A stretch of 64,000 nucleotides of DNA from Isurus oxyrinchus (taxonomy: Eukaryota). The stretch lies in contig JANJGN010000021.1 of NCBI GenBank assembly GCA_026770705.1, positions 79,670,001 to 79,734,000 of the forward strand, written 5' to 3'. Numbering within the stretch: the stretch's first letter is position 1; each line of letters begins with the position of its first letter. The notes under the pieces are model-generated. The model did not search any database. It was not told where the DNA came from and was given only the letters and a program-made list of their open reading frames with translations. Below are positions 6,493-60,517 of the stretch, in pieces. Both the position numbers and the translations under genes were made by a program.

Positions 6493-8363
6493 TTGTCTTT
6501 CAGGCAACAACTGACAGAGACCACTGATCAGTTCATAAGTAGATGCAGAGACAAGGGGTGGGTTTGCGAATTTATGGTGGCAGATCTAGCCAACAGAATA
6601 ATTGAGCTTGTGATAGCAAAAAAGAGTTCCAAAAAGACCTCTTGGGCCAACTCTGAAGTTGTAGTGATCGTTACTGCAAAGCAGACTCGAGTACAAAGTC
6701 ATACTACTGGGTGGACAGAGCCTACAAGCTATGCACAATTCATCCACATTGGCATGATTGCTTACTAGACTTGCCTGTATTGGCTATGTGGGCATATTGT
6801 CTCACACATGCACCCAGAAATTGCCCAGCTTTTAACACTGTATGCAAAGCATGTGACACCATAAGGCATTCAAAGCGCCAATGTAGAAAGCAAAGACAAA
6901 TGGTTCGGCACCAAGAGAATCTACACCAAAAAACAGACTAGTACAGCATTTCAACCAACGAAGAGCCTATACCAATCAGCGCCAAGACAAAATCCATGCA
7001 ATGTTTAGCCAAGCTGTACAGTCAGATGATGAGGATGACCAGACCATCGATACCCAAAGTGAGTCAACAATTAATAGTGTGATCAAAGAATGTATTGGCG
7101 CAGTGGTGCCAACAGAACCCTTTCCCACCGTGCAGATTATATGCCCACAAATCAAAACTGGATTGTGATGCAGGTGGAAACACCCTTCTACTTCACACAC
7201 CTGAAATGTACATACCCAAGGATGTGACAAGTGATAATTCAGCCAACTACTGCCAAACTCACTGTCCACAATAACTCAGAGATTGCTTCCCTGGGATTGA
7301 TTACACTGAAGTATCTCTACAACAACTCACCCTGGTCACCCCAAAAATTTTATGTTGTGGACACAATGGGTCATCATCAAGATGACGATGAAGATCACAC
7401 AGCACAAGGAACACCATTGGAAACAGTGCTTAAACTGGGAGAAGATCACCTAACTCTGCAATGCAGATCATCAGCCAATAGGCTGAGCAGCATAGTTTGA
7501 ACCAAATATGTATATCCATTCTGAACACTTCATTACACTACTGAACCAATGTGGAATTACTATTCAGCAGACAAGTGCGGACAAACCTCCCCCATCATCA
7601 TTCATTGATACTCCCAGCAGTACGTGATGCATTGATTGAAAAACAGGGAAAGATGAAAGATGCTTATGACTGGCATGTGGGTAATGAGTTACCTAACCTG
7701 AGCATCGGAAAAGAATTTGAGTACAACACTCAACTGATGGCACCTGAAATCCAGCAGAAATCATCAGCGTATGTCCAGAAACAAGATTGTATCAAGTACT
7801 AGCACCAAGTGGCATGACAGCGCAACAAAACAGATGCCAAATCAGAGCAATACCACAACCAGAAACACTGAGCAGTGCTATTACGAACAGAACACGGCCT
7901 AAGATGCAACACAAACAAAGAACCTCTAACCAGTATTCTGAAAACATACAGCAGTCTCCAACAAAGATCCAACATATTTCAATCTGGTTGGATAAGCAAA
8001 CCGCTGATATGTTTCAGACACAATGTTGTTTTATTTTGCTGTCATGTACATAGTTTGATTCTTTAAGGATAAACCTTTAGTTTAGAAAAAAGGGAGATGT
8101 TGTGACATGATGTACTTGTACCTTTAAGACTGAGTATCTTAAACTGCTGTCAATCATTACCACCTTGACAGATGTGATGTATTAGTCCCATGAATTGTAT
8201 TCAGTCTACAAGCAGCAACAGTAGAGATCAGATGTACTATACTTAGCCCCCTAGTTAACTTTATCTGTATATAGTCTCGTCTTTAAATAAAGAACACACT
8301 TTATTGTTTCACTAATTTTTGTTGTGTGATTGGCATATCTATGCCAAATAGAATGACATAACA
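6493..8363 (+). mobile_element. Gypsy LTR retrotransposon relic with 3' LTR (8098-8363)
   Basis: gag fragments (FRQQLTETTDQFISRCR; HAPRNCPAFNTVCKAC), IN tail ELLFSRQVRTNLP, and PPT AAAAAGGGAGA followed by TGTTG...TAACA. Confidence 0.75.
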
Positions 8364-14316: not shown

Positions 14317-14462
14317 CTAGATGCCGTGCTGCAGAGCTTGCAGCCTCTGTCTCTCTTTGATCAGTAAGATGATCCCTACAACAGCGCTGATGATTCCCAG
14401 AGTGAGTCCCAGAGCACAGATCACTGTCCCTGCACCAGACTTTTCCTCAGGCACTTCGGGTT
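14317..14462 (-). CDS. mhc2a: MHC IIA exon 4 (connecting peptide, TM, cytoplasmic tail, stop)
   Basis: [48 protein letters not shown], containing the class II alpha TM motif CALGL..G. TAG at 14317-14319 is followed 2 nt later by a GTAAGT donor, implying a separate 3'UTR exon. Confidence 0.95.
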
Positions 14463-20400: not shown

Positions 20401-23400
20401 AGATGTAGTTGGAGCAAGGGGGGGAGGATGACTGATTGGGGAGGGGGTGGAAAGGAAACCAAATAGGACCAATGTTATCTGTATAATATCCAACCAAAAT
20501 GCAGCATGCAGTCCTCTGTGTATGGAGATAGAGAGAGAAGCAAAGGTTAGAGAGCATTAGCAATAAAATCAAGGATAGAGTAAGCCTGGGTCATGCTTGC
20601 GGACAGACCGAAGGTGTTCCGCAAAGCGGTCACCCAGTCTGCGTTTGGTCTCTCCAATGTAGAGGAGACCGCATTGGGAGCAGCGAATGCAGTAGACTAA
20701 ATTGAGGGAAGTGCAAGTGAAATGCTGCTTCACTTGAAAGGAGTGTTTGGGCCCTTGGATGGGGAGGAGGGGGCAAGTAAAGGGGCAGGTGTTGCACTTT
20801 CCGTAGTTGAATGGGAAGGTGCCGTGGGAGGGGGCTGAGGTGTAAGGGGGAGATGGAGGAGTGGACCAGGGTGTCCCGCTGGGAGCGATCCCTGCGGAAA
20901 GTCGCCGGGGGGAGAAAGGAAGATGTGTTTGTAGTGGCATCATGCTGGAGTTGGTGGAAATGGCAGAGGATGATCCTTTGAACAGTGGGGTGGTAAGTGA
21001 GGACAAGGGGACCCTATCATGGTTCTGGGAGGGAGAGGAAGGTGTGAGGGCGGATTGCGGGAGATGAGCCAGACACGGTTGAGGGCCCTGTCAACGACCG
21101 TGGGTGGAAAACATCCTCATCCTCCGCCATTTCCGCCAACTCCAGAATGATGCCACTACTAAACACATCTTCCCTTCGCACCCCCCCAGCCCCCTCCCCC
21201 GGCGGCTTTCCGCAGGGATCGTTCCCTCTGGGACATCCTGGTCCACTCCTCCGTCACCCCCTACACCTCAACCACCTCCCATGGCACCTTCCTATGCAAC
21301 CACAGAAGGTGCAACACCTGCCCCTTTACTTCCCCCCTCCTCGCTGTTCAAGGCCCAAACACTCCTTTCAGGTGAAGCAGCATTTCACTTGCACTTCCCT
21401 CAACTTAGTCTACTGCATTCGCTGCTCCCAATGTGATCTCCTCTACTTTGGAGAGACCAAATGCAAACTGGGTGGCCATTTTGTGGAACACCTTCGGTCT
21501 GTCTACAAGCATGACTCAGACCCCCCCTGTAGCTTGCCATTTCAACACTCCACCCTGCTCTCATGCCCACATGTCTGTCCTTGGCCTGCTGCAATGTTCC
21601 AGGGAAGCTTAATGCAAACTGGAGGAACGGCACCTCATCTTCCGACTAGGCACTTTACAGTCTTCTGGACTTAATATTGAGTTCAACAATTTCAGATCAT
21701 AAGCTCTCTCTTCCATCCCCAGCCCCTGTCCGATCCCCCTTTTTCCAATAATTTATCATTTTTTTTACAACTATTTTTTTCTTTTCCCTCCTATTTTTAA
21801 ATTTATTTCGATCTATTGTTTCATCTCCACCTCTTTGCCCATTTCGATCCCTTCCCCCCACCCTACCCGCACTAGGGCCATCTGCCACTAGCTTGCTTCC
21901 CTTAATGTCCCCATTAGCACATCCTTTAGAATAATATCACCACCATCAACACCTGTTTGTCCTTTTGTCTATGACATCTTTGACAGTCTCTTTTGGCCTC
22001 CACCTATCACTGGCACCCTATTGAGCTCTCCTGTCCCACCCCCTTCTACCAGCTTATACTTCATCTCATTTCTATATGTCTTAGTTCTGATGATGGGTCA
22101 TACGGACTCGAAACATCAACTGTATCCCTCTCCGCATATGCTGTCAGACCTGCTGAGTTTTTCCAGGTATTTTTGTTTTTGTTCTAGATTTCCAGCATCC
22201 ACAGCATTTTGCTTTTCTCTTAGATAATCAAATCTGTACTCACCCCAGAATACGGTTGCAGATTCCTCCAGGGCTTCATGATTCACATGGCAGGAATACA
22301 TGTCTCCTGGACTCGGGATGAAGTTCAAATATGTGAATCTCTGGAAGGAATAATCCTTTTTTATATAGTACTCTGTGATGAAGTCGCCATCAGTCATTGG
22401 TTCATTGTTCTTTTTCCACTTCATGGTGATGTGTGGAGGGTGGAATCCATCAGCATGACAGATCAATGTGTTGGACTGACCCCATTCTACAGAGTTTTCA
22501 GAGTACATGGCAATTTGAGGAGGAACTGTGGGAAGAGACAGGGCACGGCATGGGTACAATTAACCAATGTGATGTAGCAGGATCAACAAAACATAATGGT
22601 CTACGGAGTGTAGAAAGTGAGTGACCATGACCAATTCATAAATTAATAGTAGATCACCAGGTCAGATCTGAAATGAGACTACTTTAAAATCAATCTAAAT
22701 AAAGTAAGAGTTTACATTTGAATAGTACCTTATCATATGACCAAGTACCTTACATTCAATGATTTCCACCAGTTATATGTACAGCAAGATGCTGAAAATA
22801 GCAAGTAAGACGAAAGACAAATTCATTTGTATCTGGTGTTGGCTGGGGTTAAACCTTGTTCAGGGAGCTGGGAAACTCTTTGCCCTTCTTTCAATAATGC
22901 CGTGAGGTCTTTTGCATCAAAATCTGAGGGCAAATTGGACCTCGGTTTATCATTACAGCCAAAAATTCAATCAATGATCTCCCAATGCTTCAGTTTTGTT
23001 TTGAGACAATCAAGGTTGTATTTCTTAGTCACCCTGAAAAGGTGATGCTGGGCCCTACTGAGGGACTAACTAAGGACAGTCTATTTTAAATATAGTACTG
23101 TGCACTGAGACAGGGTTAATCGGTAATCTTATAGTAAGGAAGAATCTGGGGAAGAGTAATCATAATGGGCTAGAATATTAAATTAATTTTGACAATGGTA
23201 TGGTTAAGTCTAAAATAGAAGTATTAAGTTTAGATAAAGCTAATTAGAGAGGTATTTGCAGACGAGTTGGCTGACATAAAATTGGGAAATTACATTAAAA
23301 GATAAGATGACAGGTAAATGGAAAACATTTAAATGAATAATTCCTAACAAATACACATTCCCTTGAGGAATAAAAAAATAATTGGAAAAGTGGTATAGCC

Positions 23401-32400: not shown

Positions 32401-35400
32401 CTTATATATCAAACATGACAGTTTCAGCGACAGGATTCTTTTTCAAGCTGCGATATTTGATGTTGTACTTGTACAGTTCACTATAATGCTGTCATCATTG
32501 GTATTGCAGATTGGCTACAGTAAGCCCAGAATAGCTAGAGGTTTATGATCTATTAATGGGTGAAATTTCTGCCCAACAAAAACTGGTGAAACCTTTTGAT
32601 TCTAAAGATGATTTCAAATACTTCCTTTTCTATTTGTTCCTTATTGTGTTCACTCTTGGTCAGTGTACACAAAACAATTGCTATGGACTTCTCCTGTCCA
32701 TTATTCATCACATGACTGATCACTGCTCCAACTCCAGAGTTTGAAGCATCACATGCTAGCTTCAGGTCACGATTTGTATCACAATGAACAATAGTTGCAT
32801 CACCAGTCAAGCTTCTTGTTGTGCTTTAAACCATTCCCATTTCCCATCTTCAATAATTCATATAATGGAGCTAACACCGTTGTAAGCTCAGGCAGGAATT
32901 GTGATTAATATTGGGCCATGCTGAGTAAAGGAAGCTCAGACACATCTTTTGGCTTCAGAGCATCCCTATCTTTTCTTTCACTGGCTGTAACCCCTTTCCA
33001 TTGATTTTCAGGCCAAAGTACACGACCTTGGATTGCACAAAAGCGGCTTGCTCATTTCAACATATGATCATTGAGCCTTTTTAACACTTCATCCCACACA
33101 TGAAGGTTCTCTTCCTCTGTTGTGGTTACAATCAACACAATATTCCAATTGTACAAACACTGCAGCGCTCCTTGCAAAATCCTATCATTTGTAATTTGGA
33201 GCATTTTTAGAGAAGAATTCACACCATCAAGTAGCTTCATTTAGGAGTATAAGGCCATTAGTGTGTTTAGCGTGAGATACTGCTAACTCTCTCAATCCAC
33301 CTGGAGCTGTGCATAAGTGTAAAGCAAATTCAACATTATCAAAAGCTTGGAGCTCACTAACTCCACATACAAATCTTGGGAGGTTGGTAATGGATCTTGC
33401 TTATCACTATTGCCTGGCTGAATGTGACTTTGTAGTCCCTACATGTCTGATTTGGGCACAACAGTGCTACAATTGGGGTTGCCCAATCACTGTAGTCAGT
33501 TTTCACTTGCACACCATTTTGCTCTAGCTTCTTTAGCTCTTCTTCAACCTTGTTTTTGAAAGCATAAGGAACTGGCCTAGCTTGAAAAAGGCTTGATTTA
33601 GATGTGCACTTCCATGTTGATTATGCTTTTATAGCTGTCCTCAAAAATGTTGCTGTAGCTATTCAATAGCTAATCCAGCTTCTTGGTCATCTCAATTTTG
33701 AAGTCTACTATGAAGTCAGTTTTTACCCATTAACATTGATTTGTTGTCACACCTTGCAACAATAGTGGGCAACTTGAGGAACCTGCGTTTATATTGAACA
33801 CTGCACTCCATTTGTTCACATGTTTCTCACACCTAACCAGAGGACATAACATAAAAAATAGGAATAGGCCATTCAGCCCCTCAAGCCTGCCCTGCCATTC
33901 AATAAGATCATGGCTGATCTGCCTCAGGCCTCAACTCCTCTCACTGCCAGCTCCTCATAACCCTCAACTTCCCGATATTTCAAAATTCTATCTACCTCCT
34001 CTTTAAATACTTTCAGTGATCTAGCCTCCACAACTCTCTGGGGTAGAGAATTCCAGACATTCACTACCCTCTGAAAGAAGAAATTCCTTCTCATCTGTTT
34101 TAAATGATTGTCCCCTTATTCTGTAACTATGTCCCCTATTTCAAGATTTCCCCCAATAGTGGAAACACCTTCTCAACATCTATCCTGTCAAGCCCCCTCA
34201 GAATCTAGTATGTTTCAATAGATCACCCCTCATTCTTCTAAACTCTAATGATCAAAGGCCTAACTTAATTAGCTGTTCTTGATAAGTCAACCCCTTCATC
34301 CCAGGAAATCAGCCGAGTGAATCTCTTTTGAACTGCCTCCAATGCCAGCATATTCTTTCTTAAATACGGGGACCAAAACCTTACAAAGTGCTCCAGGTGC
34401 AGCCTCACCAACACCCTGTACAGCTGTAACTAAACTTCCCTATTTTTAAACTCCAACCCCCCAGCAATACAGGCCAAAATTCCATTTGCCTTCTGAACTA
34501 CTTGCTGCGCCTGCATGCTAACCTTTTGTGTTTCATGCACAAGAACACCCAGATCCCTCTGTGCTGCACATTTTTGGAGTCTCTCTCCATTTAAATAATA
34601 GTCTGCCTTTTGATTTTTCCTACCAAAATGCATGACCCCTCACGCTTTCGTACATTAAACTCCATCTGCCAAGTTTTTGCCCAATCACTCAACCTGTCTC
34701 TATTCCCTTGCAGATTCCTTATGTCCTCATCATGACATGCCCTCCCACCTACTTTTGTATCATCAGCAAATTTGGATATGTTACACTCTGCTCCCTCCTC
34801 CAAGTCATTAATATAGATGGTAAATAATTGAGGCTGTAGGACTGATCCTTGTGGCACTTCACTAGTTACGTCTTTCCCCTGAAAAAAACCCATTAATCCT
34901 GACTCTCTGTGTTAACCAATCCTCAATCCATGCTAATACATCGCCCCAATACCGTGAGCTCCTATCTTGTGCAATAACCTTTTATGTGGCACCTTATCGA
35001 ATGCCTTCTGGAAATCCAAACACACTACATCTACCGGCTCCCCTTTATCAATTCTGCTTGTTATATCGTCAACGAACTCTAGCAAATTTGTCAAACATGA
35101 TTTTCCTTTCATAAAACCACGTTGACTCTGTTTGATTGCGTTCAGCTTTTCTAAATGTCCTACTATTTCTTCCTTAATAATGGAGTCTGGTATTTTCCCA
35201 ATGACAGGTGTTAGCCTGACTGGCCTATAGTTTCCAGCTTTTTGTCTCCCTCCCTTCTTGAACAGGGGCATCACATTAGTGGTTTTCCAATCCTTTGGGA
35301 CCCTCCCGGAATCTAGTGAGTTCTGGAATATGTTGACCAATGCCTCCACTATCTCTGTAGCCTCTTCCTTTCAAACCCTTGGATGCAGGCCATCAGGTCC

Positions 35401-38400
35401 TGGGGACTTGTCTGCCTTCAGTCCCCTTAGTTTGTCAAATACTTTGTCCCTCATGATAGAGACTGTTACAAGCTATTTTCTCCCATTAGCTCCTTGCTTA
35501 TTTAATATCTTTGGAATGTTTATAGCGTCCTCCACCGTGAAGACCGATGCAAAATATTGGTTTAACTTATGTGCCATTTCCCTGTTCCCCATTATCAATT
35601 CTCCAGTTGTATCCTCCAAGGGTCCCACACTCACTTTAGCCACTCTCTTATATACCCGTAGAAGCTCTTGCTGTTTGTTTTTATATTTCTTGCCAATTTA
35701 CTTTCATAATCAATTTTCTACCTTTTTATTAGCTTTTTAGTCATCCACTGCTGAAGTGTGGTGGCCTAGACAAGTATAGGGAAGCAATTTAGTGCTAAAA
35801 GGGTTAACGGAGAAGTTAGAAGTTGAATTATATGCCTAGGCCTAAGAGAAAAATACTGCAACCTTGAGAAACAATACCATCTTGTCTGACCACAGTTGTA
35901 GGATGAGCCCTGAGACATTCCATTTTGTTCTTTCTCAGGCCGACTGTAATCGGAATCATGATAAGCAATTATGTAAGCGCAACATCTGTTGTGCTGGGAA
36001 TGAATATTTACTACTATATGCAAATAATTGGATAGGTTTGTGCAAAATTTACTGATTGGCCGTAAAAATGTTTTTAACAGGTCTACGAGACGGTACAATA
36101 GCTCTCGTTGTATTATTCTCCCTTGTGCACAAGTAATAAATGGGGTTTCTACGGATTAATGATGCCTCGGTGTGATTAATCTCTGACAGTTTCTTGGAGG
36201 TTCCACCGAGATGACTAATTCCTGAGGTTGAGTCACGGAGCGCCAGCGTTAGGACCTCGTGGTTCAAGGACTCCTCAGTCCACAGCAGCCTGATTTGGGC
36301 TTCTGGGGTTCATTGACCTGCGATCTGCCTTTGCCTGCCTGTGGCTGACTCTTAGGGTAAGTCATCTATTTAAATGTTTAGATTAGTTGTTGCAGTCCAG
36401 GACCGCTTTGGCCAGAGTGTACTCAGGGTTGGAGCCTTGTGGAGTTTAGATTTAGTTTAAGAGTGTACTCGGGGTTGGAGCCCCTGGAGTTTAGTTTCAG
36501 TATATACTTGGGGTTGGAGCCCCTGGAATTGGTACAGAGTGTGTGGGTAAGTGTTTGTGGTTTGGGGCCTGGGACCCCTTAAGCGTGTGAGTGAACTGAT
36601 TGGTGAAAGGTACCTTAGTAGTTAATTGGGGGTCGAGGACCCGCCAAGGACTGGCCTTTTGATTTTTTATTAGATTAAAAAAAGGGTAATATGGCATCAA
36701 AGAAACCCCAGGTTCCGCCTCCAAAGGAAACCCCAAATGCTTATTTGTATGTCCATTATGGACCTGAAAGTGTCCAACATGTTTCTTAATGGGTTAAGTG
36801 GACCCAAGGTAAGGGAGAGAACTTCCCACCAGATGGAACTTTTAATCGGGATAGAATTGAGCGCTTAGCATATGTTTTAAGGGAGGTAGAGAAGTCGGGT
36901 AAGAAGAAAGTGGGTTGGCCTGTGTATGTACAGTGGAAGGACGAAATGCAGATGATGAGTCGAGGAAAAGGAGTCAGGAATGTGAGAAAAAGCGAAAGCA
37001 AATTGATCATAAAGAGAAGTCCAGGATCCTGGTAGCACAGCCCCCAGCTCCTCTGTCGTCTGATGATGAGCTCAGCGATCGGGACTGGCCTGTCTACCAG
37101 TCCCCTCCTCCTTATGATGAGCATGAACAGGTTCCACCCCCGGCAGCAGCTGCCCTGCCAGCTCTGCCACCTCCTGGGGCGCGTCAGAACCTGATGGTAC
37201 TACCAGTGTACGAACCTGATCCCACTCCCAACAGAGACGGAACTCAGATCCAGCCCTCCCAACCGACCCTTCGTCCTCCGGCACTTGCAGCTGCCAATGA
37301 GAGCACACCCTAATCCTACAGGGGGTCAGATGCAAGTCTACTGTCCATGGACGCCTTCCGAATTACGGGCGATTGTTGAATCCACCCCCAACCCTAAAGA
37401 GGGAGTTGAGAAGTTTATACAGAAACTCGAAATTCTCCACAAATATCATCACCCCAATTGTGATGATATAGATGTGTTTCTTGATACTTGTCTGGGTACC
37501 CAGCGTTGGCGATCAATTCAGGAAAACCGTGAGTGGCCACCACTCGGCCCTCTTACCGCGGATCAGGAGACACAACTCTTCCAGTGCATTTGTGCGGCCT
37601 TGCGGAAGGCTTTCCCTGACATAGTTGATTGGCATAAAATCCACAGTACAGTGCAAAAACCCGACGAGGATGTTTGTGTTTACGATGAATGAGTCTGTTC
37701 TGTTTTTGTAAAATATTCTGGTGTTAATCCTCAGGATTCTGTTCCGGCCCTTGTTAATGCTCTGGTACAGGGATTACAGCCTGATCTTAAGAAAGCCTTT
37801 ACCCTTACTTGTATTGGGTGGGAGGGTAAGGAAAATCTTCAAGAAATTATTAGCACTCTCCAACATTGTGAGTGCCAATTGATCTGTTGCCAGAAATCCC
37901 CAAAGGAATAATGGCCCCAATGTTAGATGATCCAGCAGCACCAGTAGCAGCGCCTCCAGTGGCGACGCCTCAGCCACCGCCAACCCCGCCTCTGCCAGCA
38001 GCTCCACTCGCAGCGCCCACGCTGGCACCGGCCCCTGCATTTTACACTGCCCCTCAATTAGCTCCTCAGCCGCCCAACTTTTATAATTACCAACCACAAT
38101 CTGTTCTGTGGTCTCGGAATATGTGGCAGCCTAATTGGCAACAGGGCGCCCAGGGGAATCGACTAGCCAGGAAGAGGGAGAGGCCACCAGGTGAGACCAA
38201 GAGGGGGCGGCCGCTGGACTTGTTATAACTGTGGCCAGGAGGGTCATTAGGCCCGTACCTGCCCTCGGCCACCTACAGTTCCGCCGCAGGCGGCACCTCA
38301 GCAGGCGCCGGCCCCTCAGCCGATCCCTTACTCTGCCCCTCAAACCATCCCCTACTTGGTAGCTAACCCATTTGGGTCACTACACAATAGAGTTGCCGCA

Positions 38401-41400
38401 CCCTTTTACCTCTCATTACCGTTGAGGAACCCACAATCCCTTTGTCTGTTAATGGCCGTCTCTTGAATTTCCTTATCGATACTGGAGCGACTTATTCTAC
38501 CCTTCAGCCTGTCGAGGCTCCTGATGTCATCCCCTCTAGGGATTCAGTTTCCATTGCTGGGGTCTTGGGACAACCGCTTTCGCTGCCAGTTTCTGAAGAA
38601 GTGCCCTTTGACCTGAACGGAAGAAAAGGATCCCATCGATTCCTCCTTGGGGCTGACGTCACGGTCAATCTTTTGGGTCGTGAACTCCTCTGCAAACTCC
38701 GATGCACATTCGACTGCTCTAATAATTCTATCACTCTTCAAATTCCCAAGTCTACTTACTCCACAGTCATTGACCTTCTACAAGAAGAAACTTTGCGTCA
38801 GCTTCACGTTTGCTGGTGGAATTTCGGACATTGTGATTTATCCGATAAACTCAAGACTGCGCTACTCCAGCTTCTGACCGACCGCCATGTTTCCACCACG
38901 ATAGCCATCCACCCGACCCTGCAACACTGGCATCAGGATCTTTACTGTACAGCGCACTACTCTGCCTGCTCGGACCATCAGGATGCCCGTGAGGTAACAG
39001 GCCATCTGGGTGAGTGCTTTCTTTCTTTATCTTCCCTTTGCATCGGACCTGAAGGAGTTGCTGGTTCGTGTCCCTTCCTCCAGCTGCCCAACCACTTTTT
39101 CATGCCCGGGATGGTGCCCCTCAAGTTACCCTCTGTGTCTGCGCTGGGTATCAGGCCAGGGACCTTGGTCCTATGGTGTACCACCTTCAGTGCACAGATC
39201 CCCAAACATCTGTGGAACTGATGGATGGTTCCTGAATATCTATGATCAGGCTATCCAATTTTTTCCCTCTATGCCCCTTGAGTACCCTGCCTATTTTCAG
39301 CACCATGCTCTAGGCAGTGTAACCACTTGATGCCTCGGTAACTATCCCCGATACCTTGTGGGCAAAGGGTCCTAATGATGTTGGTCAGATATTATCAACA
39401 GAACCTTTTCGGGTGCGTTTGGATCCCTCTAAACCCCTCCCTCGGAAGGCTCAATATCCTCTTAATCCCGAAGCAATAGAAGGTATAAAGCCTGTCCTCC
39501 AAGACCTTTTAAACCCTGGTGTTGTTATTCCCACTGTTAGCCCCTGCAACACTCTTATACTCCAGTGCGGAAGCCAGGCAAGAATACCTGGCGTTTTGTC
39601 CAGGACTTGCAGGCAGTAAACGCTTGTGTGATCCCGGCTTATCCAGTGGTGGCCAACCTGGCTACTATACTTACCTGTGTTCCCTCTAACTCCACTTGTT
39701 ATACTGTTGTTGACCTCTGTGGAGCCTTTTTCTCCTTACCCATACACCCTGACTCTCAGTTTCTCTTCACCTTCACCTTTTATGGTATCAGTATACATGG
39801 ACCCAGTTGCCCCAGGGGTATACGGAGAGCCTGACCATTTTCTCTTGTGCCCTGCAGGCTGATCTCACTGATGTCTCCTTTTCTGGGGACTCTACTCTCC
39901 TTCAGTACGTCAATGACTTGCTTCTTTGCTCTCTGTCTGAGCAGACTTGTCTCAATGACTCCCTCACCCTTCTGAAAGCTTTAGCTGGTAAGGGCCATAA
40001 GGCCTCCCGTGAAAAGTTGCAGTTTTGCCGATCCCTTGTTGAATATTTGGGCCATGTTCTTGACAGCCCCGCTCGCCTCCTATCCAAACGCCGTGTCGAC
40101 AGCATTATCTCCCTTCCTCTTCCCTGCGCTAAAAAGGATCTGACTCATTTTCTTGACATGACGGGGTATTGTCGGCAGTGGATCCCTAATTAGGCCCTTG
40201 CAGGATCTCGCCATCTCTTCAGCCCCTGAGGACCTCGCTTGGGAGCCGGACTCCCAAGCCGCTTTTGCGGCTCTCAAGACAGCCCTTATTTCTGCCCCTG
40301 CCCTCGGCCTTCCTGATTATACTAAACCTTTTCACCTTTATGTTCACGAGCGTTGCGGCTTTTCACAGGGGTACTTACCCAGTCCCATGGAGCTACCCAG
40401 TGACCGGTTGCTTACTACAGTACTCGCTTAGATCCTGTTGCGCATGGTTATCCCTCCTGTATCCGATCCAGTGCGGCAGCCTACCTCACTGTTGTCACTG
40501 CCCAGTCCCTTACCCTTGGGTACCCTGTTGTTCTACATGTTCCCCATGCAGTCACGGTTCTCCTTAACCATTCGGCTACCCAACACCTTACCGCTGCCCG
40601 CGTCACCTGCTATGAGACAGCCCTTTTAGGGGATCCCTCATTGACTATTGTATGATACACCACTCTCAACCCAGCTACCCTGTTACCCAGAGGAAGACAG
40701 TGAGTCTCATGATTGCTCCACTATTGTCCAGCACTCCACCCTACCTTGTCAAGATCTGCAGGATCATCCTCTGTTAAATTCCGACCTCATCCTTTTTGTT
40801 GATGGCTTCTCTACTCGATCACCAAGCGGTGATTTACTTATTGGCTATGCTATTTGTGACTCTTACTCTGTTATTGAAGCATCTAGTCTCCTGTCACCCT
40901 GCTCTGCCCAGGCCATGGAACTTTTTGCCCTTACACGAGTCTGCATATTTGCTGCCAAACAATCGGCCAATATCTATGCCGACTCTCGATACGCTTTCGG
41001 CATGACACATGACTTTGGACAGCTTTGGAAACTCCGGGGGATTTCTCACATCAGCAGGAACCCCCGTCCGCCATGGGCAGCTCATCGCTAATCTTTTAAC
41101 GGCTATCCAGCTCCCCTCCTCCCTTGCTGTTATTAAATGCTCTGCCCTTTCACAAGGTAATGATTTTGTTTCTCTCGGTAATGATAGAGCTGATCGTGCC
41201 GCCTATGCGGCCATGGCCAGTCTCACTGGGTCTGTGGTTCCCCTTTGTTATCAGGCTGCAACCCCTTCTCCTGTAGCTAGTCTAACTGATCTTATTCACT
41301 TGCAGTCACAAGCATCTACCCGTGAACAAAACAGTTGGACTCAAGCATTGCGCGCACAACGCTCTGACGGCCTCTGGATTTCTCCTGATGGCCGTGCCTT

Positions 41401-44400
41401 TGCCCCTGCTTCACTCCTGCCCTTGGATTGCCCGCATGTTACATTCATTTTCCCATGCAGGCAAAGGGGGGATGAACAGAATGGCACAACAGATGTGGTT
41501 TTTCACCATGAGAGCTAAAATAGCTTCACAATGTCTGCTTTGTCAATGACATAACCCAGGCAAGACGCCCACAGTGACTGCTGGTACAGGACTCCAGTCA
41601 TGGGGCCCATTTGTACACCTACAAATGGCCTTTATATAAATGCCTAAAAGTATGGAAAAAATTATGTTTTGGTTCTAGTATGTTTGTTCTCGCGATGGGT
41701 GGAGGCGTATCCCACCCAACGAAATGATGCTGTTATTGTTGTAAAATTGTTGTTACATGAATACATACCCAGATTTGGGATACCAGAGATTTTATCAAGT
41801 GATAATGGACCTCACTTTACCGCTAAATTGATAAAGGAACTGCTGAAGGCCTTACAATGCAACCATCACCTTTCCTGCCCATACCACCGCCAGTCTACTG
41901 GGGCGGTGGAAAGACAAAATGGTATTCTGAAAAACATACTAGTTAAATTATGCAAAGAAACTGGTTTGAAATGGCTTGAAGCTCTACCCTTGGCACTCAT
42001 GACTATGCGCTCTCACCCTAACTGTACCACCTCCCTTTCCCCTCATGAAGTTGTAATGGGACAACCCATGCGCCTCCCGGTGGCACCACCTTTGTCAGCC
42101 AGGGAAATGGACATCCACACAATGGATGAGGGAATTATACCTACTGTATAGCGCTTACTAATTCTCTCAAAAGCTTGCATATACAGGTAGTAGAAGCTCA
42201 GAAAAACCCACCATTGAAGACTGTCATCAATACCAGCCCGAGGACCTAGTCCTGGTTAAAAGGCCTTCAGAAGAAAGAACTGTTTGGAACCTCGATGGGA
42301 GGGGCCTTTCCAAGTCCCACTCCCCACCCATACGGCCGTGAAGGTTGAAGGACGTCCCTTGTGGATCCACACATCACATGTCAAGCGGACGCTGACCTCG
42401 GATGGAAGTGTTTGTGCAGGAACTTTAACTGAGCCATCAGAATGTGGACTCTGATTTGGATCCTGTCCTGCATGGTCATTGTGGGGGCATGGACTACCAA
42501 TTCTATGGTTCAACGAATGCAGGCCGTAGCCTCGCAAGTTAATTGGATTAAATGTTGGATTTTTACTCATTTTCCTGTTAACCCTTCCTCCTCCAAGATG
42601 CATTTTCTGGCTTTCACCTCAGATTCCATTTGGTCCCTAGGTAATACAAGGGCCATCATCCATCAAGCGCCCGTTTGGAGATGGGAGCCCACCTTTGTGG
42701 TTGTTAAGGGGGAGGCCTGGCTATGCATCAGGAGAAATTATACCAAGGGTAGTACTCGGGTGGGCGAGCTGCCATTGGGGTCCTGTGCCTACCTTGCTGA
42801 TTATAATTACTGGGAAAGCCGATTCCGGTTCCACAACCAGTCTGGTCCTATGACTACCTTTTGGGAGTGCAAGGCCAATGAGGTGATGTGTCTTTCGCAG
42901 GCCCCGAGATCTGAGGATAGACTCACATACTTTAATGGGAGTGGGTGTGATTGCCAATGATCATACAATCTCACCTTAAATAATTCCACATCCACCTGGA
43001 GTGCTACTGGCTACTACACTGAAGGATTTGGGCCTTGCAGCTACAAAAATCAGTCCGGTTGCCCCGACTTGTTGGCTCTGCGAGCATTGCAGCTCAGTCA
43101 GACCTGCTGCATCCACTGGTATGACCAGACGAACTCCTCTTTTGTCTGGGACCAGCTCAGCTTTTGCCAAAATTCCACTTATTGGTACCCTACCCTTGTT
43201 CACAATGGCTCATTCTGGCTCTGTGGAAACAGGGCGTACAAAACCCTCCCTGACAATTGGACAGGCACCTGCACCCCTGAGGCCTTTGCGGTCAAGAGCT
43301 TTACTATTCACTCTCTCCACAACCATCCAGGGCCTGTGAAGACTCATAAACGATCAGCCTGGAACCCGCTTGTCACCCGCAACACCGGATTCCACAAATT
43401 TGTCCGGGCCTTCATCCCAGGTCTGGTGGTCTCAGAGCTGGAAAAGGCCATTGTTAATATTTCCGCTACAATGGAACTTATTGAGAATAAGACTGTTGAC
43501 ACCATTCAGAGTCTGCAGTTGGAAGCTAAGTCCCTTTCCAAGGCTGTCCTCCAGAACCATATGGCCCTGGATTTCCTGCTAGCAGCGCAGAGGGGAGTCT
43601 GTGCGGCCATTAATGAAACATGTTGTTTCTGCGTTAACAAGGGCCAGAGGATTAAGACTGATGTACATTTCATTCAGGACCAGGTGTGCGTCCTCCATGC
43701 AGTTGCCCAGGAGAAATCCTGTGACTGGTGGGGGTGGCTCCCCAATATCGGTGGGTGGTTTGGGGGCCTTTTCAAAACCCTCCTCAAATACCTCGTCATA
43801 GGCCTTGCCCTACTCATTGTTCTGTATGTTGTTATCCAGCTTGTCCTCTGTTGCATCCACTCTGTCTGCCGACTACAGAACCTTCAGAGATCTGGTGGCA
43901 AACAAGCTGTCCGTTCCCTCCCTCTCCTCAGGAATCAGGACCCCACTGAGGATGAAGCCCGGCGACTTGGATACATCGAACTTGGCTAAGGGTGGTGGAT
44001 TGTCCTTGTAGGACAAAAGGGGGGCAAGTGTGGTGGCCTAGACAACTATAGGGAAGCCATTTAGTGCTAACAGGGTTAATGGAGAAGTTAGAAGTTGAAT
44101 TATATGCGTAGGCCAAAGAGAAAAATACTGCAACCTTGAGAAACAATACCATCTTGTCTGACCACAGTTGTAGGATGAGCCCTGAGACATTCCATTTTGT
44201 TCTTTCTCAGGCCGACTGTAATTGGAATCATGGTAAGCATTTAAGTAAGCGCAACATCTGTTGTGCTGGGAACGAATATTTACTACCTCATGGATTGGTC
44301 AGTTAGCTTATGCAAATAAGTGGATAGGTTTGTGCAAAATTAACTGACTGGCTGTAAAAATGCTTTTAACAGGTCTGTGTGTATTCTGCTACGCGACGGT

Positions 44401-47400
44401 ATTAGCTCTCGTATTATTCTCCCTTGTGCACAAGTAATAAATGGGGTTTCTATGTATTAATGATGCTTTGGTGTGATTAATCTCCTACACTCCAATACTT
44501 TTTACCATTATTATTTACCATTCTGGTTCTAATATCTGCACTCTATTACTTATATTTTCTGCCCCTTCTTGTCACACTTTGATTATCATTCGTCTTCACT
44601 ATCCTGCATCTGTTCTCTCTCATTTCTTTTTGAGTTTTTAAACTACCCTTTAATTGAACCCTCCCCCCTACTAATTAAAGTCCTATCTAAAACCCTAGTT
44701 ATACAATTCACCAGGGCACTGGTCCCAGCATGGTTCACATGAAGCCTGTCCCAACAGAACAGCTCACTCCTTCCCCAGTACTGGTGCCAGTGCCCCATGA
44801 ATTGGAACCCATTTCTCCCACAACAATCTTTGATCCACGCATTTACCTCTCTAATCTTATTTACCCTACACCAATTTGCACATGGCTCAAGTAGTAATCC
44901 GGAGATTATTACCTTTGTGGTTCTGCTTTTTAATTTAGCCCAGAGCTGCTCGTAGTCCCTCAGCAGACTAGGTGTTCAGTTGAACTGTGCTCTCAGTTAG
45001 ATGTACTTCAATGAGTGCTCTCTCATGTGTCTTTACCCATAACGGAACAATCTGCAGCCAATCAATGCACATCTGGATGTACTGTTGAGCTATCAACACC
45101 TGTGTACAAAACTCTGTCATTTGAGTGATTGTTGGTGGCATAAATATTGTACAATCATAGTTCCTCCTCCCTTAAGCATCCTGGACTCACTTCAAGATTG
45201 TGAATTCCACGTTTGTGACTTTGCTGCTGTTTTCCATGACTATCAGAATGAGTTATTTTTCCTGCTTGGGTCTTTGGTCGGCAATCAGTTGGAATATGGC
45301 CTTTCAGCAACAAAATAATTTGGCATTTCTGTACTGATATGCCTGTGCCATGCAGTTGCCCTTACAACAATAATAAGACAATAAATCGCAATCAACAGCA
45401 TTTGCTGAGACATTGTTTCCGCTAGTTGTGGAATCTAAAACACGGGGGTGGGCACAATCTCAGGATAACAGGCCGATCATTTGTACTGAGATGAGGAGAA
45501 ATTTCTTCACTCGGAGGGTTGTAAATCTTTGGAATTCTCTAACCCTAAGGGTTCTGGATGCTCCACCACTGAATGCATTTAAGGCTGGGGTAGACAGATT
45601 TTTGGTCTCTCAGGAAATTAAGGGATATGGGGAGCAGGCAGGAAAATGGAGGTGAAGCCAAAGATCAGCCATGGTCATGTTGAATGGCAGAGCAGGCACA
45701 ATAGGCTGTGTGTTCTCCTCCTGCTCCTATTTCTTATGTTCTTATGTAATCCAGAGGCCCAAGCTAATGCTCTGTGGACATGGATTCAAATCCCACCACG
45801 GCAGCTGGTGGAATTTAAATTCAATTAATAAATCAGGAATTGACAGCCTGTCTCTGTAATGGTGACCATGAAACTATCAATTGCTGTAAAAACCCATCTG
45901 TATGCAAGGAAATCTGCCTTTCTTACCTGGTCTGTCCCATGTGTGACTCTAGATTCACAGCTATGTGGTTGACTCTTAACTTCCCAGCAAGCCATTCAGT
46001 TCAAGGGATGGGCAACAACTGCTGGCATTGCCAACAATGCCCAGATTCCATGAAAGGATATATTTTTAAAAAATCTTGATATCTCCAAGGCACATTGTTC
46101 TTGAAGTGTCTTACTCAATTTGGTAGAGGGCAATAATGCAGGTGGTTCTCCTGCAGCCGTATTGATGATATTAGCTATGTATTATTAAAAGAGAGGGAGA
46201 AATGAAAAGCTGTATTTAACTTTGCTGCTCGTCGGGTCATTGAAACATTTCCTGCGTTTGATCTAGGTTCTGAGTGTCACGCCCCTGCACCTGACCATCC
46301 CTGCCACCTCCATCTCAGAACAAAGGTACAGGAGTAGGCCTTTTAGCTCCTTGGACCTATCCCATGTCTAATTAGGACTGGTTCATATATCTTGGGAATC
46401 TTATGCTTATTAATGGGAAACAGAAAGTTGTTCCTTTCCCTCACCTTTTCCATTAAGACCTCCAGGGAAATGTGAACCTGGGGCTAGGCCTTGTGATTCA
46501 TTTCTTTATTCACAAACAAATCTTCCTAAAGTGAATGTGACCTCCCTTTAGACTTTAACTGGGTCTCTGGAGGTCAAACAGATATCCCAGTTGGGGAGTG
46601 GGCAGACTGCCTGCTCCAGTCTGATCAGGTAGGCAGCCATCGAATCAATACCACTGTCTGTGTCAGTTTGATCTTCACTGTCCCCATTCACCTGAAACCT
46701 GCTCCCAGTTACAATCTTCCCAAGGGCTTGAACTATAATCTCTTCCCTCCGAAACCCAAACTTCTTTGGCTTAAATCACCAAAGCGAGGCATTGGGGAGC
46801 AAGGATATAAACTCAGCAAGTTTGGGCAGTGGGCAAGAAGCCAGAGGACAGGAAAACAGAGCTGCACCAGGTACCACGGTGGGGTTAGCGAGATAACCAG
46901 ACCCAGGTCAAGTTACCCACAGTACTGACCCACTCCAGACCCGGGGGGTGAACCCGGTCACTTACCTTTCGGTTCCAGGGTCCCGTGCGACAGGTTCTTC
47001 AACACATTTAGACTCTGTTTCATGATGGCGATGTCGGCTGAGATCCCCGCCTCTCCTCCCTGTATTGTGATGTGCTGGAACTCGGGGATCCGCGCCACCT
47101 CCTTCTTCAGCTTGAAATCCATGTAGAAAACCTCATCACCGTCCACCTCCACATCAAACTGTTTATCCGGACTCTGCTCCTGAACCACGTAGACCAGGTA
47201 ATCTTCGTGCTGGTCTGTGTGAGAGAGAGAGAGTCAGGGCAAAAAATAACTCACTGAATATCAATAGGAATAATTACTCAGAGAGAAAACATCATTAAAT
47301 CAAAAGAAACCTGGTCCAGCCGGTGTGTGAAACAGCCGCTGCCCTAAAACCTTATTTAAAAATCAAAGGTCTACGTATCAGAGTCACATGACTATGGAAA

Positions 47401-59400: not shown

Positions 59401-60517
59401 TGCACCCCATGTAATAACACCACACTGATCCCAGTCAGATCAGGATTATTGATATAAGAACTCACAGCCTGCACTCGCTGTATTAACACCACACTGATCC
59501 TAGTCAGATCAGGATTATTAATAAAATAACTCAGTCTGCACTCCCCGTAATAACACCACACTGCTCCCAGTCAGATCAGGATTATTAATAAAATAACTCA
59601 CAGTCTGGACTCCCTGTAATAACACCACACTGATCTCAGTCAGATCAGGATTATTAATAAAATAGCTCACAGTCTGCACTCCCTGTAATAACACCACATT
59701 GATCCCAGTCAGATCAGGATTATTAATAAAATAACTCACTGCCTGCACTCCCTGTAATAACACCACATTGATCCCAGTCAGATCAGGATTATTAATAAAA
59801 TAACTCACTACCTGCACTCCCTGTAATAACACCACACTGATCCCAATCAGATCAGGATTATTAATAAAATAGCTCACAGTCTGCACTCCCTGTAATAACA
59901 CCACACTGATCCCAGTCAGATCAGGATTATTAATAAAATAGCTCACATTCTACAATCCCTGTAATAACACAACATTGATCCCAGTCAGATCAGGATTATT
60001 AATAAAATAACTCACAGTCTGCACCCCATGTAATAACACCACACTTATCCCAGTCAGATCAGGATTATTAATAAAATAACTCACAGTCTGGACTCCCTGT
60101 AATAACACCACACTGATCTCAGTCAGATCAGGATTATTAATAAAATAACTCACAGTCTGGACTCCCTGTAATAACACCACACTGCTCCCAGTCAGATCGG
60201 GATTATTAATAAAATAACTCACAGTCTGGACTCCCTGTAATAACACCACATTGATCCCAGTCAGATCAGGATTATTAATAAAATAACTCACTGCCTGAAT
60301 CCCTGTAATAACACCACACTGATCCCAATCAGATCAGAATTATTAATAAAATAACTCAGTCTGCACTCCTATAATAACACCATATTGACTCCAGGGAGAT
60401 TGGATATTAATATCTTAATCTATGTAAACTTTTATTACTTAACAACTCACATTCTCCAGCCCTGGCTCCATGAATTAAAACGAGCGCCAACACAGTAAAG
60501 TATCTCCCAGCTTCCAT
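14317..60517 (-). CDS. mhc2a: MHC class II alpha chain gene, spliced CDS join(60451-60517, 46966-47214, 22244-22525, 14317-14462), 247 aa
   Basis: Four exons with GT-AG boundaries and phase-1 junctions join in frame (67+249+282+146=744 nt). The product is signal peptide, alpha1, alpha2 Ig-C1 and CP/TM/cytoplasmic tail, and closely resembles shark class II alpha chains as I recall them. Confidence 0.96.
15560..15975 (+). repeat. Degenerate ~45-50 bp minisatellite
   Basis: Recurring GGGGCAGTGGGATTAGTTTGGGATTGATACAGGG motif. Confidence 0.7.
16660..17650 (-). mobile_element. Harbinger-derived relic
   Basis: GGGCGGAATC terminus; minus-strand Myb-like 'QCRKKMNDL'-type exon relic at about 17295-17500. 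Confidence 0.55.
18355..18497 (+). mobile_element. Penelope-like 3' tail with hammerhead core
   Basis: CTGAAGAAGGGTCAAACGGACTTGAAATGTTAAC plus the conserved tail. Confidence 0.75.
19268..19420 (+). repeat. 37-bp tandem repeat, about 4 copies
   Basis: GGAGGTTGTATGGGTCCCATGTTGACAGTAGTCTTGA variants. Confidence 0.8.
19580..20070. mobile_element. HER1-like LINE fragments (two orientations)
   Basis: [15 protein letters not shown] on plus; minus-strand segment similar to 54820-55080. Confidence 0.7.
20586..22219. mobile_element. Penelope-like element, head-to-head inverted GIY-YIG arms (older copy)
   Basis: [27 protein letters not shown] on both strands, junction at about 21110; the tail ends about 25 bp from the exon 3 donor. 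Confidence 0.88.
22244..22525 (-). CDS. mhc2a: MHC IIA exon 3 (alpha2 Ig C1 domain)
   Basis: 282 nt, VPPQIAMYS...[19 protein letters not shown]...[13 protein letters not shown]...FW, with the C-W-C Ig C1 signature, CAG acceptor and GTGAGT donor. Confidence 0.97.
23070..26700 (+). mobile_element. Decayed CR1 LINE with nested RTE-like fragment (about 23740-24460), Penelope tail (23430-23553) and purine-rich repeat
   Basis: CR1 ORF2 relics and tail at about 26690; [19 protein letters not shown] and [15 protein letters not shown] (RTE-type RT). Confidence 0.7.
26949..28768. mobile_element. Young palindromic Penelope-like insertion with 14-bp TSD
   Basis: About 850-bp near-identical inverted arms, both encoding the GIY-YIG domain; TAAACTTTCTACAG at 26935-26948 and 28769-28782. 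Confidence 0.93.
29350..30070. mobile_element. Harbinger-type MITE
   Basis: Ends AAAATCCTGGCCC; internal motifs shared with 49510-50030 and 51020-51492. Confidence 0.55.
30200..31170 (-). mobile_element. CR1 fragment with nested SINE-like and Penelope inserts
   Basis: CR1 3' sequence; inserts at about 30530-30690 and 30744-30991. Confidence 0.7.
30744..30991. mobile_element. Mini palindromic Penelope-like insertion with 13-bp TSD
   Basis: TTCCATTAGCCTT at 30731-30743 and 30992-31004; inverted tails, each with CTGATGA. Confidence 0.85.
31500..33840 (-). mobile_element. Gypsy LTR retrotransposon pol relic
   Basis: [28 protein letters not shown] (RNase H) and integrase relics. Confidence 0.8.
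33845..35756 (-). mobile_element. CR1 LINE ORF2 (left flank of the ERV)
   Basis: [41 protein letters not shown]; tail at 33845. Confidence 0.92.
35757..36188 (+). repeat. ERV 5' LTR (432 bp)
   Basis: TGTGGTGGCC...CTCTGACA, direct repeat of 44029-44489; AATAAA at 36135. Confidence 0.93.
36195..36212 (+). other. Primer binding site, tRNA-Gln
   Basis: TGGAGGTTCCACCGAGAT, an 18-nt complement of the tRNA-Gln 3' end, just downstream of the 5' LTR. Confidence 0.92.
36691..38390 (+). pseudogene. gag: ERV gag (frameshifted)
   Basis: Fragments with PPPY late domain, WTPSELRAI capsid segment, QKPDE MHR-like motif, and [13 protein letters not shown] zinc knuckle at about 38220-38265. Confidence 0.88.
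38391..42431 (+). pseudogene. pol: ERV pro-pol (PR, 2H phosphoesterase-like insert, RT, RNase H, IN), frameshifted
   Basis: [10 protein letters not shown] and NLLGRELL (PR); [35 protein letters not shown] (RT); LFVDG and [10 protein letters not shown] (RH); [24 protein letters not shown] (IN). Confidence 0.92.
42442..43989 (+). pseudogene. env: ERV env, single reading frame with one internal stop
   Basis: Signal peptide, CWIF (CXXC relic), KTHKR furin site, [26 protein letters not shown] helix. ORFs 42442-42960 and 43069-43989 are in the same frame, separated only by TGA at 42958. Confidence 0.93.
44029..44489 (+). repeat. ERV 3' LTR (461 bp), preceded by PPT
   Basis: PPT AAAAGGGGGG at 44015-44024; LTR TGTGG...CCTACA; AATAAA at 44436. 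Confidence 0.93.
44490..44970 (-). mobile_element. CR1 LINE ORF1 end (right flank of the ERV)
   Basis: Minus strand encodes a CR1 ORF1 esterase-like segment ([24 protein letters not shown]). Confidence 0.75.
45410..46065 (+). mobile_element. CR1 3' end followed by HE1-like SINE
   Basis: [17 protein letters not shown] and CR1 tail at about 45745, then SINE motifs. Confidence 0.8.
46966..47214 (-). CDS. mhc2a: MHC IIA exon 2 (alpha1 peptide-binding domain)
   Basis: (TC)n-ACACAG acceptor, then 249 nt encoding [46 protein letters not shown]...[12 protein letters not shown], then donor G|GTAAG. The DGDE-x-FY-x-DF motif is typical of class II alpha1. Confidence 0.96.
48957..49463. mobile_element. 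Non-autonomous element with ~80-bp inverted termini containing hammerhead cores
   Basis: TTGCTGAAAAGAGAGACATGTT...CTTGCACTCATCAGG mirrored by TGAGTACAAGACGAAAAGCTTCAGCAACGTATCTCCCTTTTCAGCAA. Confidence 0.7.
49909..51019. repeat. Perfect 368-bp inverted duplication (49909-50276 / 50652-51019), 375-bp spacer
   Basis: The arms read as exact reverse complements by eye. Confidence 0.95.
51505..53050 (-). mobile_element. Gypsy relic (gag and PBS-like site)
   Basis: [17 protein letters not shown] gag start; similar to 6500-6900; TGGTGTACAGCAGTG PBS-like at about 52974-52988. Confidence 0.65.
53225..53575 (+). mobile_element. CR1 3' fragment
   Basis: [26 protein letters not shown]. Confidence 0.85.
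53585..55790 (-). mobile_element. HER1-like LINE relic plus HE1-like SINE (55480-55790)
   Basis: [43 protein letters not shown]. Confidence 0.8.
55790..57700 (+). mobile_element. L2-type LINE relic interrupted by a HER1 3' end (about 56520-56840)
   Basis: LDLSAAFDT-type RT segment at about 56290, GVPQ, and L2 3' motifs (CAAAACTCTGCTGCC). Confidence 0.7.
57743..60415. repeat. 69-bp minisatellite, about 38-39 copies, in MHC IIA intron 1
   Basis: Unit ACTCACAG(C/T)CTGCACTCCCTGTAATAACACCACACTGATCCCAGTCAGATCAGGATTATTAAT(ATACTA/AAAATA). Confidence 0.97.
60451..60517 (-). CDS. mhc2a: MHC IIA exon 1 (signal peptide [22 protein letters not shown])
   Basis: ATG at 60517, hydrophobic leader, donor T|GTGAGT at 60450, phase 1 matching exon 2. 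X/Y boxes lie about 160-200 bp upstream. Confidence 0.92.

What the first reader, a model, noticed from the sequence alone, without database searches (positions are those of the whole stretch)
35757..44489. Full-length epsilon-like provirus with tRNA-Gln PBS inside an intact MHC II alpha gene
Seen: a complete LTR-gag-pro-pol-env-LTR provirus, antisense in intron 2 between the alpha1 and alpha2 exons, with a perfect Gln PBS. TAG at 38388 is in frame with pro, as expected for gamma/epsilon stop-readthrough. Established: the epsilonretrovirus WDSV primes with tRNA-His, and antisense intronic ERVs in immune genes (HERV-K(C4) in C4) are known and dimorphic. Inference: this may be an undescribed chondrichthyan ERV family and an allele-specific insertion affecting MHC II expression.
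Basis: partly seen in the sequence, partly recalled or inferred. Interest (0 to 1): 0.7.

Follow-up and report, generated by a model that had tools for sequence, protein, structure and literature searches.

The report
Old shark retrovirus inside immune gene
A broken fish-type retrovirus, likely tens of millions of years old and carrying a remnant of a CNPase-like enzyme domain, sits backwards in an intron of an intact shark MHC class II gene and is likely a harmless passenger that splicing removes.

Summary
In detail: an 8,733-bp LTR-gag-pro-pol-env-LTR provirus (+, 35757-44489) with an 18-nt PBS for host tRNA-Gln lies antisense in intron 2 of an intact 247-aa shark MHC IIα gene. It is defective (20 private frameshifting indels in gag and pro-pol, a stop in env) and old (LTR K2P 0.058; about 58-132 Myr at two published shark rates). 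It belongs to a multi-copy family (at least 40 LTR matches) with 4-bp target duplications. RT groups on the epsilon side, with WEHV-1. A CNPase-fold domain lies between protease and RT (fold Z 17.1, next 9.0); this is already reported for teleost epsilon-like ERVs. This copy also lacks a target duplication, and about 950 bp of the host CR1 is missing at the site. A contig from a second organism shares a deletion seen in no other matched copy, so the insertion likely predates that species split. An RNA-like run splices α1 to α2 of this gene. A recent allele-specific insertion is not supported; ancient presence/absence dimorphism remains untested. Verdict: new member of a known kind, modest interest.

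The parts
35757..36188 (+). 5' LTR, TG...CA, 432 bp; two short deletions relative to the 3' LTR; AATAAA at 36135
36195..36212 (+). Primer-binding site complementary to the 3' end of host tRNA-Gln(CTG)
36405..36528 (+). Three copies of a 39-nt repeat in the leader
36691..38390 (+). gag (start codon likely); broken by stops and 5 private frameshifting indels; CCHC knuckle at 38221; ends at TAG 38388-38390
38391..38777 (+). Protease (Pfam RVP), in frame with the TAG
38778..39312 (+). CNPase-like 2H phosphoesterase domain between protease and RT; in this copy split by a frameshift, with one catalytic motif substituted
39344..41430 (+). RT and RNase H, in several frames; RT catalytic motif altered near 39900-39920
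41440..42430 (+). Integrase (Pfam rve), frameshifted
42442..43989 (+). Gamma-type env (signal peptide, furin site, immunosuppressive domain, CX6CC, TM); one in-frame stop at 42958-42960
44015..44024 (+). Polypurine tract
44029..44489 (+). 3' LTR, TG...CA, 461 bp
34591..35753 (-). Host CR1 LINE, ORF2 RT part (left flank)
44497..44967 (-). Same-type CR1, end of ORF1 up to the start of ORF2 (right flank). About 950 bp that lie between the two flanks in other CR1 copies are missing; 3 nt (left) and 7 nt (right) at the junctions do not match CR1
60451..60517 (-). MHC IIα exon 1 (leader)
46966..47214 (-). MHC IIα exon 2 (α1)
22244..22525 (-). MHC IIα exon 3 (α2)
14317..14462 (-). MHC IIα exon 4 (connecting peptide, TM, tail, stop)

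Best explanation
This is a defective provirus of a multi-copy, epsilon-like shark retrovirus family that lies antisense in intron 2 of an intact MHC IIα gene and is likely an old, inert passenger removed with the intron. Shown: anatomy, breaks in all genes, family membership, RT placement, the CNPase-like domain, the intact host gene, and a spliced α1-α2 junction in one RNA-like run. Inferred: the ancestral virus primed with tRNA-Gln, made Gag-Pol by reading through the TAG, and carried a CNPase-fold 2H phosphoesterase between protease and RT. The family spread by replication under purifying selection, and this copy entered a CR1 element about 60-130 Myr ago, before organisms A and B split. 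It was likely tolerated because the LTR poly(A) signals face away from the host transcript. The missing target duplication and the ~950-bp CR1 loss come from a repair-joined (aberrant) integration or a deletion at one flank; the data do not separate these.
For: Defective: private frameshifting indels against two sister copies are 5 in gag, 15 in pro-pol and 1 in env. Old: LTR K2P 0.058, against 0.038-0.067 in 4 of 4 other family proviruses; the two LTRs are each other's nearest and sisters, 92/83, not starred. Shared with another organism: a contig of run X5 (organism B) matches 38235-38362 with 2 differences and no gap, at depth 25.9, like unique intron flank at 20-28. The best of 45 other matches in this genome is 88% alike, and the best full-span matches are 6 bp longer. 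Family: 40 LTR matches scored of 569 candidates; 92 matches to the CNPase-like domain, some being pieces of one copy or more distant families; 17 of 18 other insertions have at least 3 of 4 matching target bases (read by eye). Replication history: changes private to this copy in pol segments are 56 synonymous and 30 nonsynonymous, dN/dS 0.17. RT tree: shark rows fall with WEHV-1 on one side of starred branches (97-99) against gamma-like rows. Fold: pLDDT 86; CNPase at Z 17.1 against 9.0 for the next hit; Foldseek E 2e-7. Host: open 247-aa CDS. A loose end in run X15 equals the first 30 nt of this gene's α2 exon and differs from the paralogue. Both AATAAA of the LTRs are on the strand opposite to the gene; the gene-sense strand holds 1 in 8.7 kb.
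Against: Orthology in organism B rests on one 128-bp contig from one individual. It is not shown that the spliced allele in X15 carries the provirus. In run X2, a provirus-identical piece has depth 7.8, about half that of shared flank pieces (15-19), and a second intron allele differs at 21 of 336 bases; this fits either a diverged proviral allele or an empty one. env has fewer frameshifts than pol (1 in 1.55 kb against 15 in 4.0 kb), although its private dN of 0.041 shows no conservation. Shark substitution rates are assumed values from two papers. RT placement used 57 hand-picked database rows, one named epsilonretrovirus, and gamma labels that I inferred.
Confidence: 0.8

Rival explanations
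1. Ancient, trans-species presence/absence dimorphism: the provirus marks one MHC IIα allelic lineage kept by balancing selection, with no effect of its own.
For: Half-depth provirus-identical piece in X2, and a 6%-diverged second allele in unique intron DNA. MHC lineages can outlast species splits (established knowledge).
Against: Other flank pieces in X1 and X2 differ from the window by only 0-1.3%, so deep divergence is patchy. The organism B piece is at full depth. The assembly holds only this gene and one paralogue.
Confidence: 0.12
2. Regulatory element: an LTR drives RNA antisense to the gene, or acts as an enhancer, and so tunes MHC IIα expression, as recalled for HERV-K(C4) in C4.
For: Antisense intronic position; LTRs structurally whole. 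In RNA-like run X1, contigs identical to this provirus cover most of it.
Against: That cover (depth 3-7) equals the unique intron flank (5-8), and contigs give no strand or level. It fits unspliced pre-mRNA or DNA carry-over. X1 may be the window's own source and is not independent.
Confidence: 0.05
3. The element is a chimera of two insertions that recombined through their LTRs and deleted the CR1 between them, or the junction is mis-assembled.
For: 0 of 4 target bases match, against at least 3 of 4 in 17 of 18 other insertions. The family forms at least one LTR flanked by both PPT and PBS (L023).
Against: The two LTRs are mutual nearest neighbours and sisters, and their distance is typical for the family. 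The flanks are colinear halves of one CR1 type, and exon order is normal. This rival changes the history of the site, not the verdict on function.
Confidence: 0.1

Closest known systems
Teleost epsilon-like ERVs with a CNPase domain (Basta et al. 2009, seen only as cited in PMC4977317)
   Same: Class I epsilon-like RT. A CNPase-fold domain between protease and RT, homologous to that of tilapia, pipefish, pufferfish and perch pol proteins. 15 of 54 RT-selected database proteins also hold it, among them hagfish, wrasse, sturgeon and newt.
   Different: Shark host. The top RT hits are sea-turtle ERVs (59-60%) and unnamed records; the turtle and amphibian proteins that span the region lack the domain. 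This copy's domain is broken.
Epsilonretrovirus WEHV-1 / WDSV
   Same: Same side of the RT tree; in-frame gag-pol stop; gamma-type env.
   Different: Only 40% RT identity to WEHV-1; no room for accessory ORFs after env; Gln PBS, against His/Arg as recalled; WEHV-1 pol lacks the CNPase-like domain.
Elephant shark CmiERV lineages II/III (PMC4422223)
   Same: Chondrichthyan epsilon-like ERVs of similar age by LTR distance (0.024-0.033 there).
   Different: Sequences not available to me, so the relationship is untested.
HERV-K(C4) in complement C4 (recalled, no call)
   Same: Antisense provirus in an intron of an MHC-region immune gene.
   Different: Class II virus with known dimorphism. Here dimorphism and effect are not shown, and the element is class I.

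Membership tests
Epsilon-like class I ERV (clade Mu of PMC6001957) | RT groups with epsilonretroviruses rather than gammaretroviruses | tested here: met
   60 rows, 343 columns. Three natural single-frame shark fragments lie with WEHV-1 behind starred branches (99, 97). Position inside the clade is unresolved; gamma labels are inferred.
Epsilon-like class I ERV (clade Mu of PMC6001957) | gag and pro-pol separated by a single in-frame stop | tested here: met
   TAG 38388-38390 is in frame with protease here; gag-stop-pro is in one frame in L032 and L033.
Epsilon-like class I ERV (clade Mu of PMC6001957) | Gamma-type env (immunosuppressive domain, CX6CC) | tested here: met
   TLV_coat E 9e-20; syncytin-2 E 2e-20, with the motifs aligned.
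Epsilon-like class I ERV (clade Mu of PMC6001957) | 4-bp target duplication (typical of class I, recalled) | tested here: met
   Met for the family (17 of 18 other insertions). Absent at this copy; see the row on canonical integration.
Genus Epsilonretrovirus in the strict sense (WDSV, WEHV) | Accessory ORFs (rv-cyclin and orf-b after env, orf-c in the leader; recalled) | tested here: not met
   env ends at 43989 and the PPT starts at 44015; no + strand ORF of 100 aa or more in the leader.
Genus Epsilonretrovirus in the strict sense (WDSV, WEHV) | tRNA-His or tRNA-Arg primer (recalled) | tested here: not met
   The PBS matches tRNA-Gln(CTG).
CNPase-bearing fish ERVs | CNPase-fold 2H domain with two HxT motifs in pol | tested here: met
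   A naturally open stretch of sister copy L031 has both motifs and folds as CNPase. The window's stretch matches it at 71-89% in three frames.
CNPase-bearing fish ERVs | Phosphodiesterase activity | not testable with these tools
   Fold and motifs only.
Canonical integrase-made insertion | Matching target duplication and intact host flanks | tested here: not met
   GAAG versus CTCC; 902-965 bp of CR1 missing by 9 of 14 comparison loci.
HERV-K(C4)-type dimorphic intronic ERV | Antisense in an intron of an intact immune gene | tested here: met
HERV-K(C4)-type dimorphic intronic ERV | Presence/absence polymorphism | tested here: inconclusive
   0 of 4 runs bridged the right junction or showed an empty site; 50-86% of each run was read.
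HERV-K(C4)-type dimorphic intronic ERV | Effect on host gene expression | not testable with these tools
   Only unstranded contigs were available.

The most novel reading that the evidence does not exclude
A provirus some 60-130 million years old has been kept as a trans-species presence/absence polymorphism of a shark MHC IIα gene, and its LTRs change the expression of the allele that carries it. It would be a chondrichthyan counterpart of HERV-K(C4), in the oldest lineage with MHC.
Probability: 0.06. Interest if true: 0.75.

Novelty: new member of a known kind. Interest (0 to 1): 0.3.

Why it matters
As it stands the value is modest. It is a dateable, shared insertion marker in the shark MHC class II region. 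It shows that the CNPase-bearing type of epsilon-like retrovirus, described from teleosts, also colonised a shark germ line in dozens of copies. The purpose of that captured enzyme fold in retroviruses appears untested: my searches found only a one-line mention in a review. Other viral 2H enzymes among the fold hits are annotated as RNase L or cGAMP antagonists, but CNPase is far the closest fold. If the insertion proved dimorphic with an effect on expression, it would bear on how transposable elements shape MHC alleles.

Tried and rejected
(1) Pfam and PDB sequence searches did not recognise the PR-RT insert; only the atlas, homologues and the fold did. (2) Junction test: 0 of 4 DNA runs covered 44498-44545 or bridged 44489/44490. 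Only 50-86% of each run was read, so this is no evidence either way. (3) No listed holder was on record as RNA; X1 and X15 are treated as RNA only because they show splice junctions. X15 has no cover over gag-pol, but also none over part of the unique intron, so the hole means nothing. (4) Empty-site comparison with the paralogous IIα gene 1 Mb away: its 16.5-kb intron 2 is not colinear and has no match to the provirus. No second haplotype is in the assembly. (5) Chimeric provirus: the LTR tree does not support it. (6) The AAG before the 5' LTR as an unprocessed viral end: suggestive, because it equals the bases after the PPT and mismatches CR1, but 2 of 20 other left flanks also end in AAG. 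(7) env co-option: rejected on private dN 0.041, dN/dS 0.52 and a stop. (8) The missing CR1 piece is not elsewhere in the window. (9) The bacterial promoter scan is irrelevant to an LTR. (10) Tree rows: 59 proteins were chosen by hand from about 190 returned, and 2 with suspected duplicated domains were dropped (P0108, P0109). (11) Earlier findings: three look-ups returned nothing. (12) Basta 2009 is not held.
Full report
Observation. The window holds a provirus on the + strand from 35757 to 44489. Its LTRs (432 and 461 bp, TG...CA) match at 403 of 427 aligned bases, K2P 0.058. An 18-nt PBS at 36195-36212 matches host tRNA-Gln: a pattern holding 15 nt of its complement found 25 sites, and ARAGORN called tRNA-Gln(CTG) in 4 of the 5 loci scanned. 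Pfam finds protease, RT, RNase H, integrase and TLV_coat in order. TAG 38388-38390 is in frame with the protease. The host gene is a minus-strand MHC IIα with four GT-AG exons and an open 247-aa frame. Intron 2 spans 22526-46965, and the provirus is 36% of it. That the host is a shark is my inference from the MHC sequence (recalled likeness to nurse shark IIα) and the 5.0-Gb genome.

State of the virus. All genes are broken. Against two sister copies, this copy has 5, 15 and 1 private frameshifting indels in gag, pro-pol and env. The zinc knuckle holds a stop, the RT catalytic motif is altered, and env has one in-frame stop. env looked better kept than pol, but its private dN (0.041) is no lower than pol's (0.025), so I reject co-option.

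Family and age. The 5' LTR gave 40 scored matches of 569 candidates at 78-100%. Four other two-LTR proviruses were fetched; all four are also broken. Their LTR pairs differ by 0.038-0.067, and the LTR tree is star-like. T = d/2u gives 58 Myr at 0.5e-9 per year (the rate assumed for catshark in PMC10699275, section 7 read) and 132 Myr at 2.2e-10 (assumed in PMC4422223, first 10,000 of 14,366 characters read). Changes private to this copy in pol segments are mostly synonymous (56 against 30, dN/dS 0.17). I read this as purifying selection during replication before insertion; with three rows, the branch also includes the path to the other two copies.

Shared with a second organism. In run X5 (organism B), a 128-bp contig matches 38235-38362 with 2 differences and no gap, at depth 25.9, like unique intron pieces at 20-28. 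In the window's own genome the best of the other 45 matches to this stretch is 88% alike, and the best full-span ones are 134 bp long. The contig therefore shares a deletion not seen in the other matched copies. This is one contig from one individual, but it makes an insertion older than the A/B split likely.

Classification. The RT core fragment is closest to MLV-type RT in the PDB. In the protein collection it is closest to sea-turtle ERVs (59-60%) and unnamed records; WEHV-1 is at 40%. A tree of 57 hand-picked database proteins and three natural shark fragments places the family with WEHV-1 against gamma-like rows (starred 99 and 97). It sits in an open group with hagfish, wrasse, turtle and squamate ERVs. 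This is clade Mu of PMC6001957 (passages read), which says such viruses occur in nearly all jawed vertebrates and that shark retroviruses are scattered through the tree. It is not genus Epsilonretrovirus in the strict sense: there is no room for accessory genes (the genus features are recalled).

About 176 codons lie between protease and RT where a turtle relative has 13 residues. Pfam and PDB sequence searches were blank. A naturally open stretch of sister copy L031, itself a defective provirus, found 51 homologues. Of 18 scanned, 14 were retroviral pol pieces by Pfam (one further hit looked like another RT type), several from teleosts. The atlas pointed to 2H phosphoesterases (0.93-0.94, recognition value just under its threshold). 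The predicted model (pLDDT 86) matched CNPase at Foldseek E 2e-7 and at Z 17.1 over 171 residues, rmsd 3.2, with the next 2H enzymes at Z 9.0 or less. The domain was present in 15 of 54 RT-selected proteins. The review PMC4977317 (passages read) states that ray-finned fish epsilon-like ERVs occasionally encode a CNPase, citing Basta 2009, which is not held. The architecture is thus known, and this extends it to a shark. Its role is inferred only: RNA 2',3'-cyclic phosphate chemistry is likelier from the fold, and antagonism of nucleotide immune signals is possible by analogy with the viral 2H hits. In the window copy the domain is frameshifted and one catalytic motif is substituted.

An atypical insertion site. 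Of 30 LTR loci, 18 other insertions could be scored for target duplication (14 solo LTRs and 4 proviruses; 6 unpaired LTRs left out). 17 match at 3 or 4 of 4 bases; one boundary was adjusted by eye. This copy matches at 0 of 4. Its flanks are two colinear halves of a CR1 LINE, and 902-965 bp that lie between them in 9 of 14 comparison loci are missing; 3 loci lacked the left flank and 2 gave partial matches. Three bases on the left and seven on the right do not match CR1. The LTRs are sisters (92/83), which argues against a chimera. A repair-joined integration and a flank deletion remain open. A literature search on this point found nothing relevant, so that mechanism rests on my own knowledge.

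Effect on the host gene. Run X15 (organism A, another study) has one contig whose loose end at 46966 equals the first 30 nt of this gene's α2 exon and differs from the paralogue. The intron is therefore spliced in that individual, though its allele is not shown to carry the provirus. In X1, contigs identical to the provirus (up to 1,455 bp) lie at depth 3-7, like the unique intron (5-8). X1 may be the window's source, and contigs give neither strand nor level. Its leader junction differs from the window's leader at 3 bases (another allele or the paralogue). Against my reading: X2 shows a provirus-identical piece at half depth and a second intron allele with 21 differences in 336 bases of DNA that is unique in the genome. 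The direct junction test was blank in 4 of 4 runs. Dimorphism is thus untested, not excluded.

Novelty. Ten literature searches found no description of this family or of an ERV in a shark MHC II intron. I did not read the supplements of the shark ERV surveys, which may list it, and most subscription papers are not held. HERV-K(C4), the WDSV primer and the antisense bias of intronic ERVs are recalled, not checked. Verdict: new member of a known kind, likely an inert passenger (0.8); interest 0.3.

Noticed in passing
G000:C21:79648353-79648622 (L040) and C21:80888715-80888972 (L039): MHC class IIβ-like β2 exons lie about 22 kb left of the window (same strand as the IIα gene) and about 120 kb beyond the paralogue, so there are likely two IIα-IIβ pairs about 1 Mb apart in opposite orientation.
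   Followed up: partly
G000:C21:80751861-80768874 (L036, L038): Second MHC IIα gene, 66 of 82 α1 residues identical; its intron 2 is 16.5 kb, not colinear, and has no provirus.
   Followed up: yes
L023 (G000:C12:25290340-25290790): A family LTR with a polypurine tract on the left and a PBS on the right: likely the middle LTR of a tandem provirus.
   Followed up: no
L031:5056-5856: A sister provirus carries an ~800-bp insertion that resembles the Penelope/GIY-YIG-like repeats of the window (for example 27257-28700), and it lacks about 1.7 kb of pol.
   Followed up: no
window 58288-60333: Long tandem repeat just inside intron 1 of the MHC IIα gene, next to the leader exon.
   Followed up: no
window 20569-21674 and 27370-28261: Several GIY-YIG-like (Penelope-type, label recalled) fragments, two of them in tandem, in introns 2 and 3.
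   Followed up: no
window 6430-8053 and 32288-33620: Decayed Gypsy-like LTR retrotransposon fragments, judged by eye from translations.
   Followed up: no
P0058 cluster (sea turtles), P0119 (hagfish), P0115 (wrasse): The shark family's RT neighbours span turtles, hagfish and teleosts. The CNPase-like domain is present in the hagfish and wrasse rows and absent in turtle and squamate rows that span the region, which fits loss in reptile lineages or exchange.
   Followed up: partly
window 45952-46286: Run X2 holds a second allele with 21 differences and 3 gaps in 336 bases of unique intron, more than the 2-4% seen between organisms A and B.
   Followed up: partly
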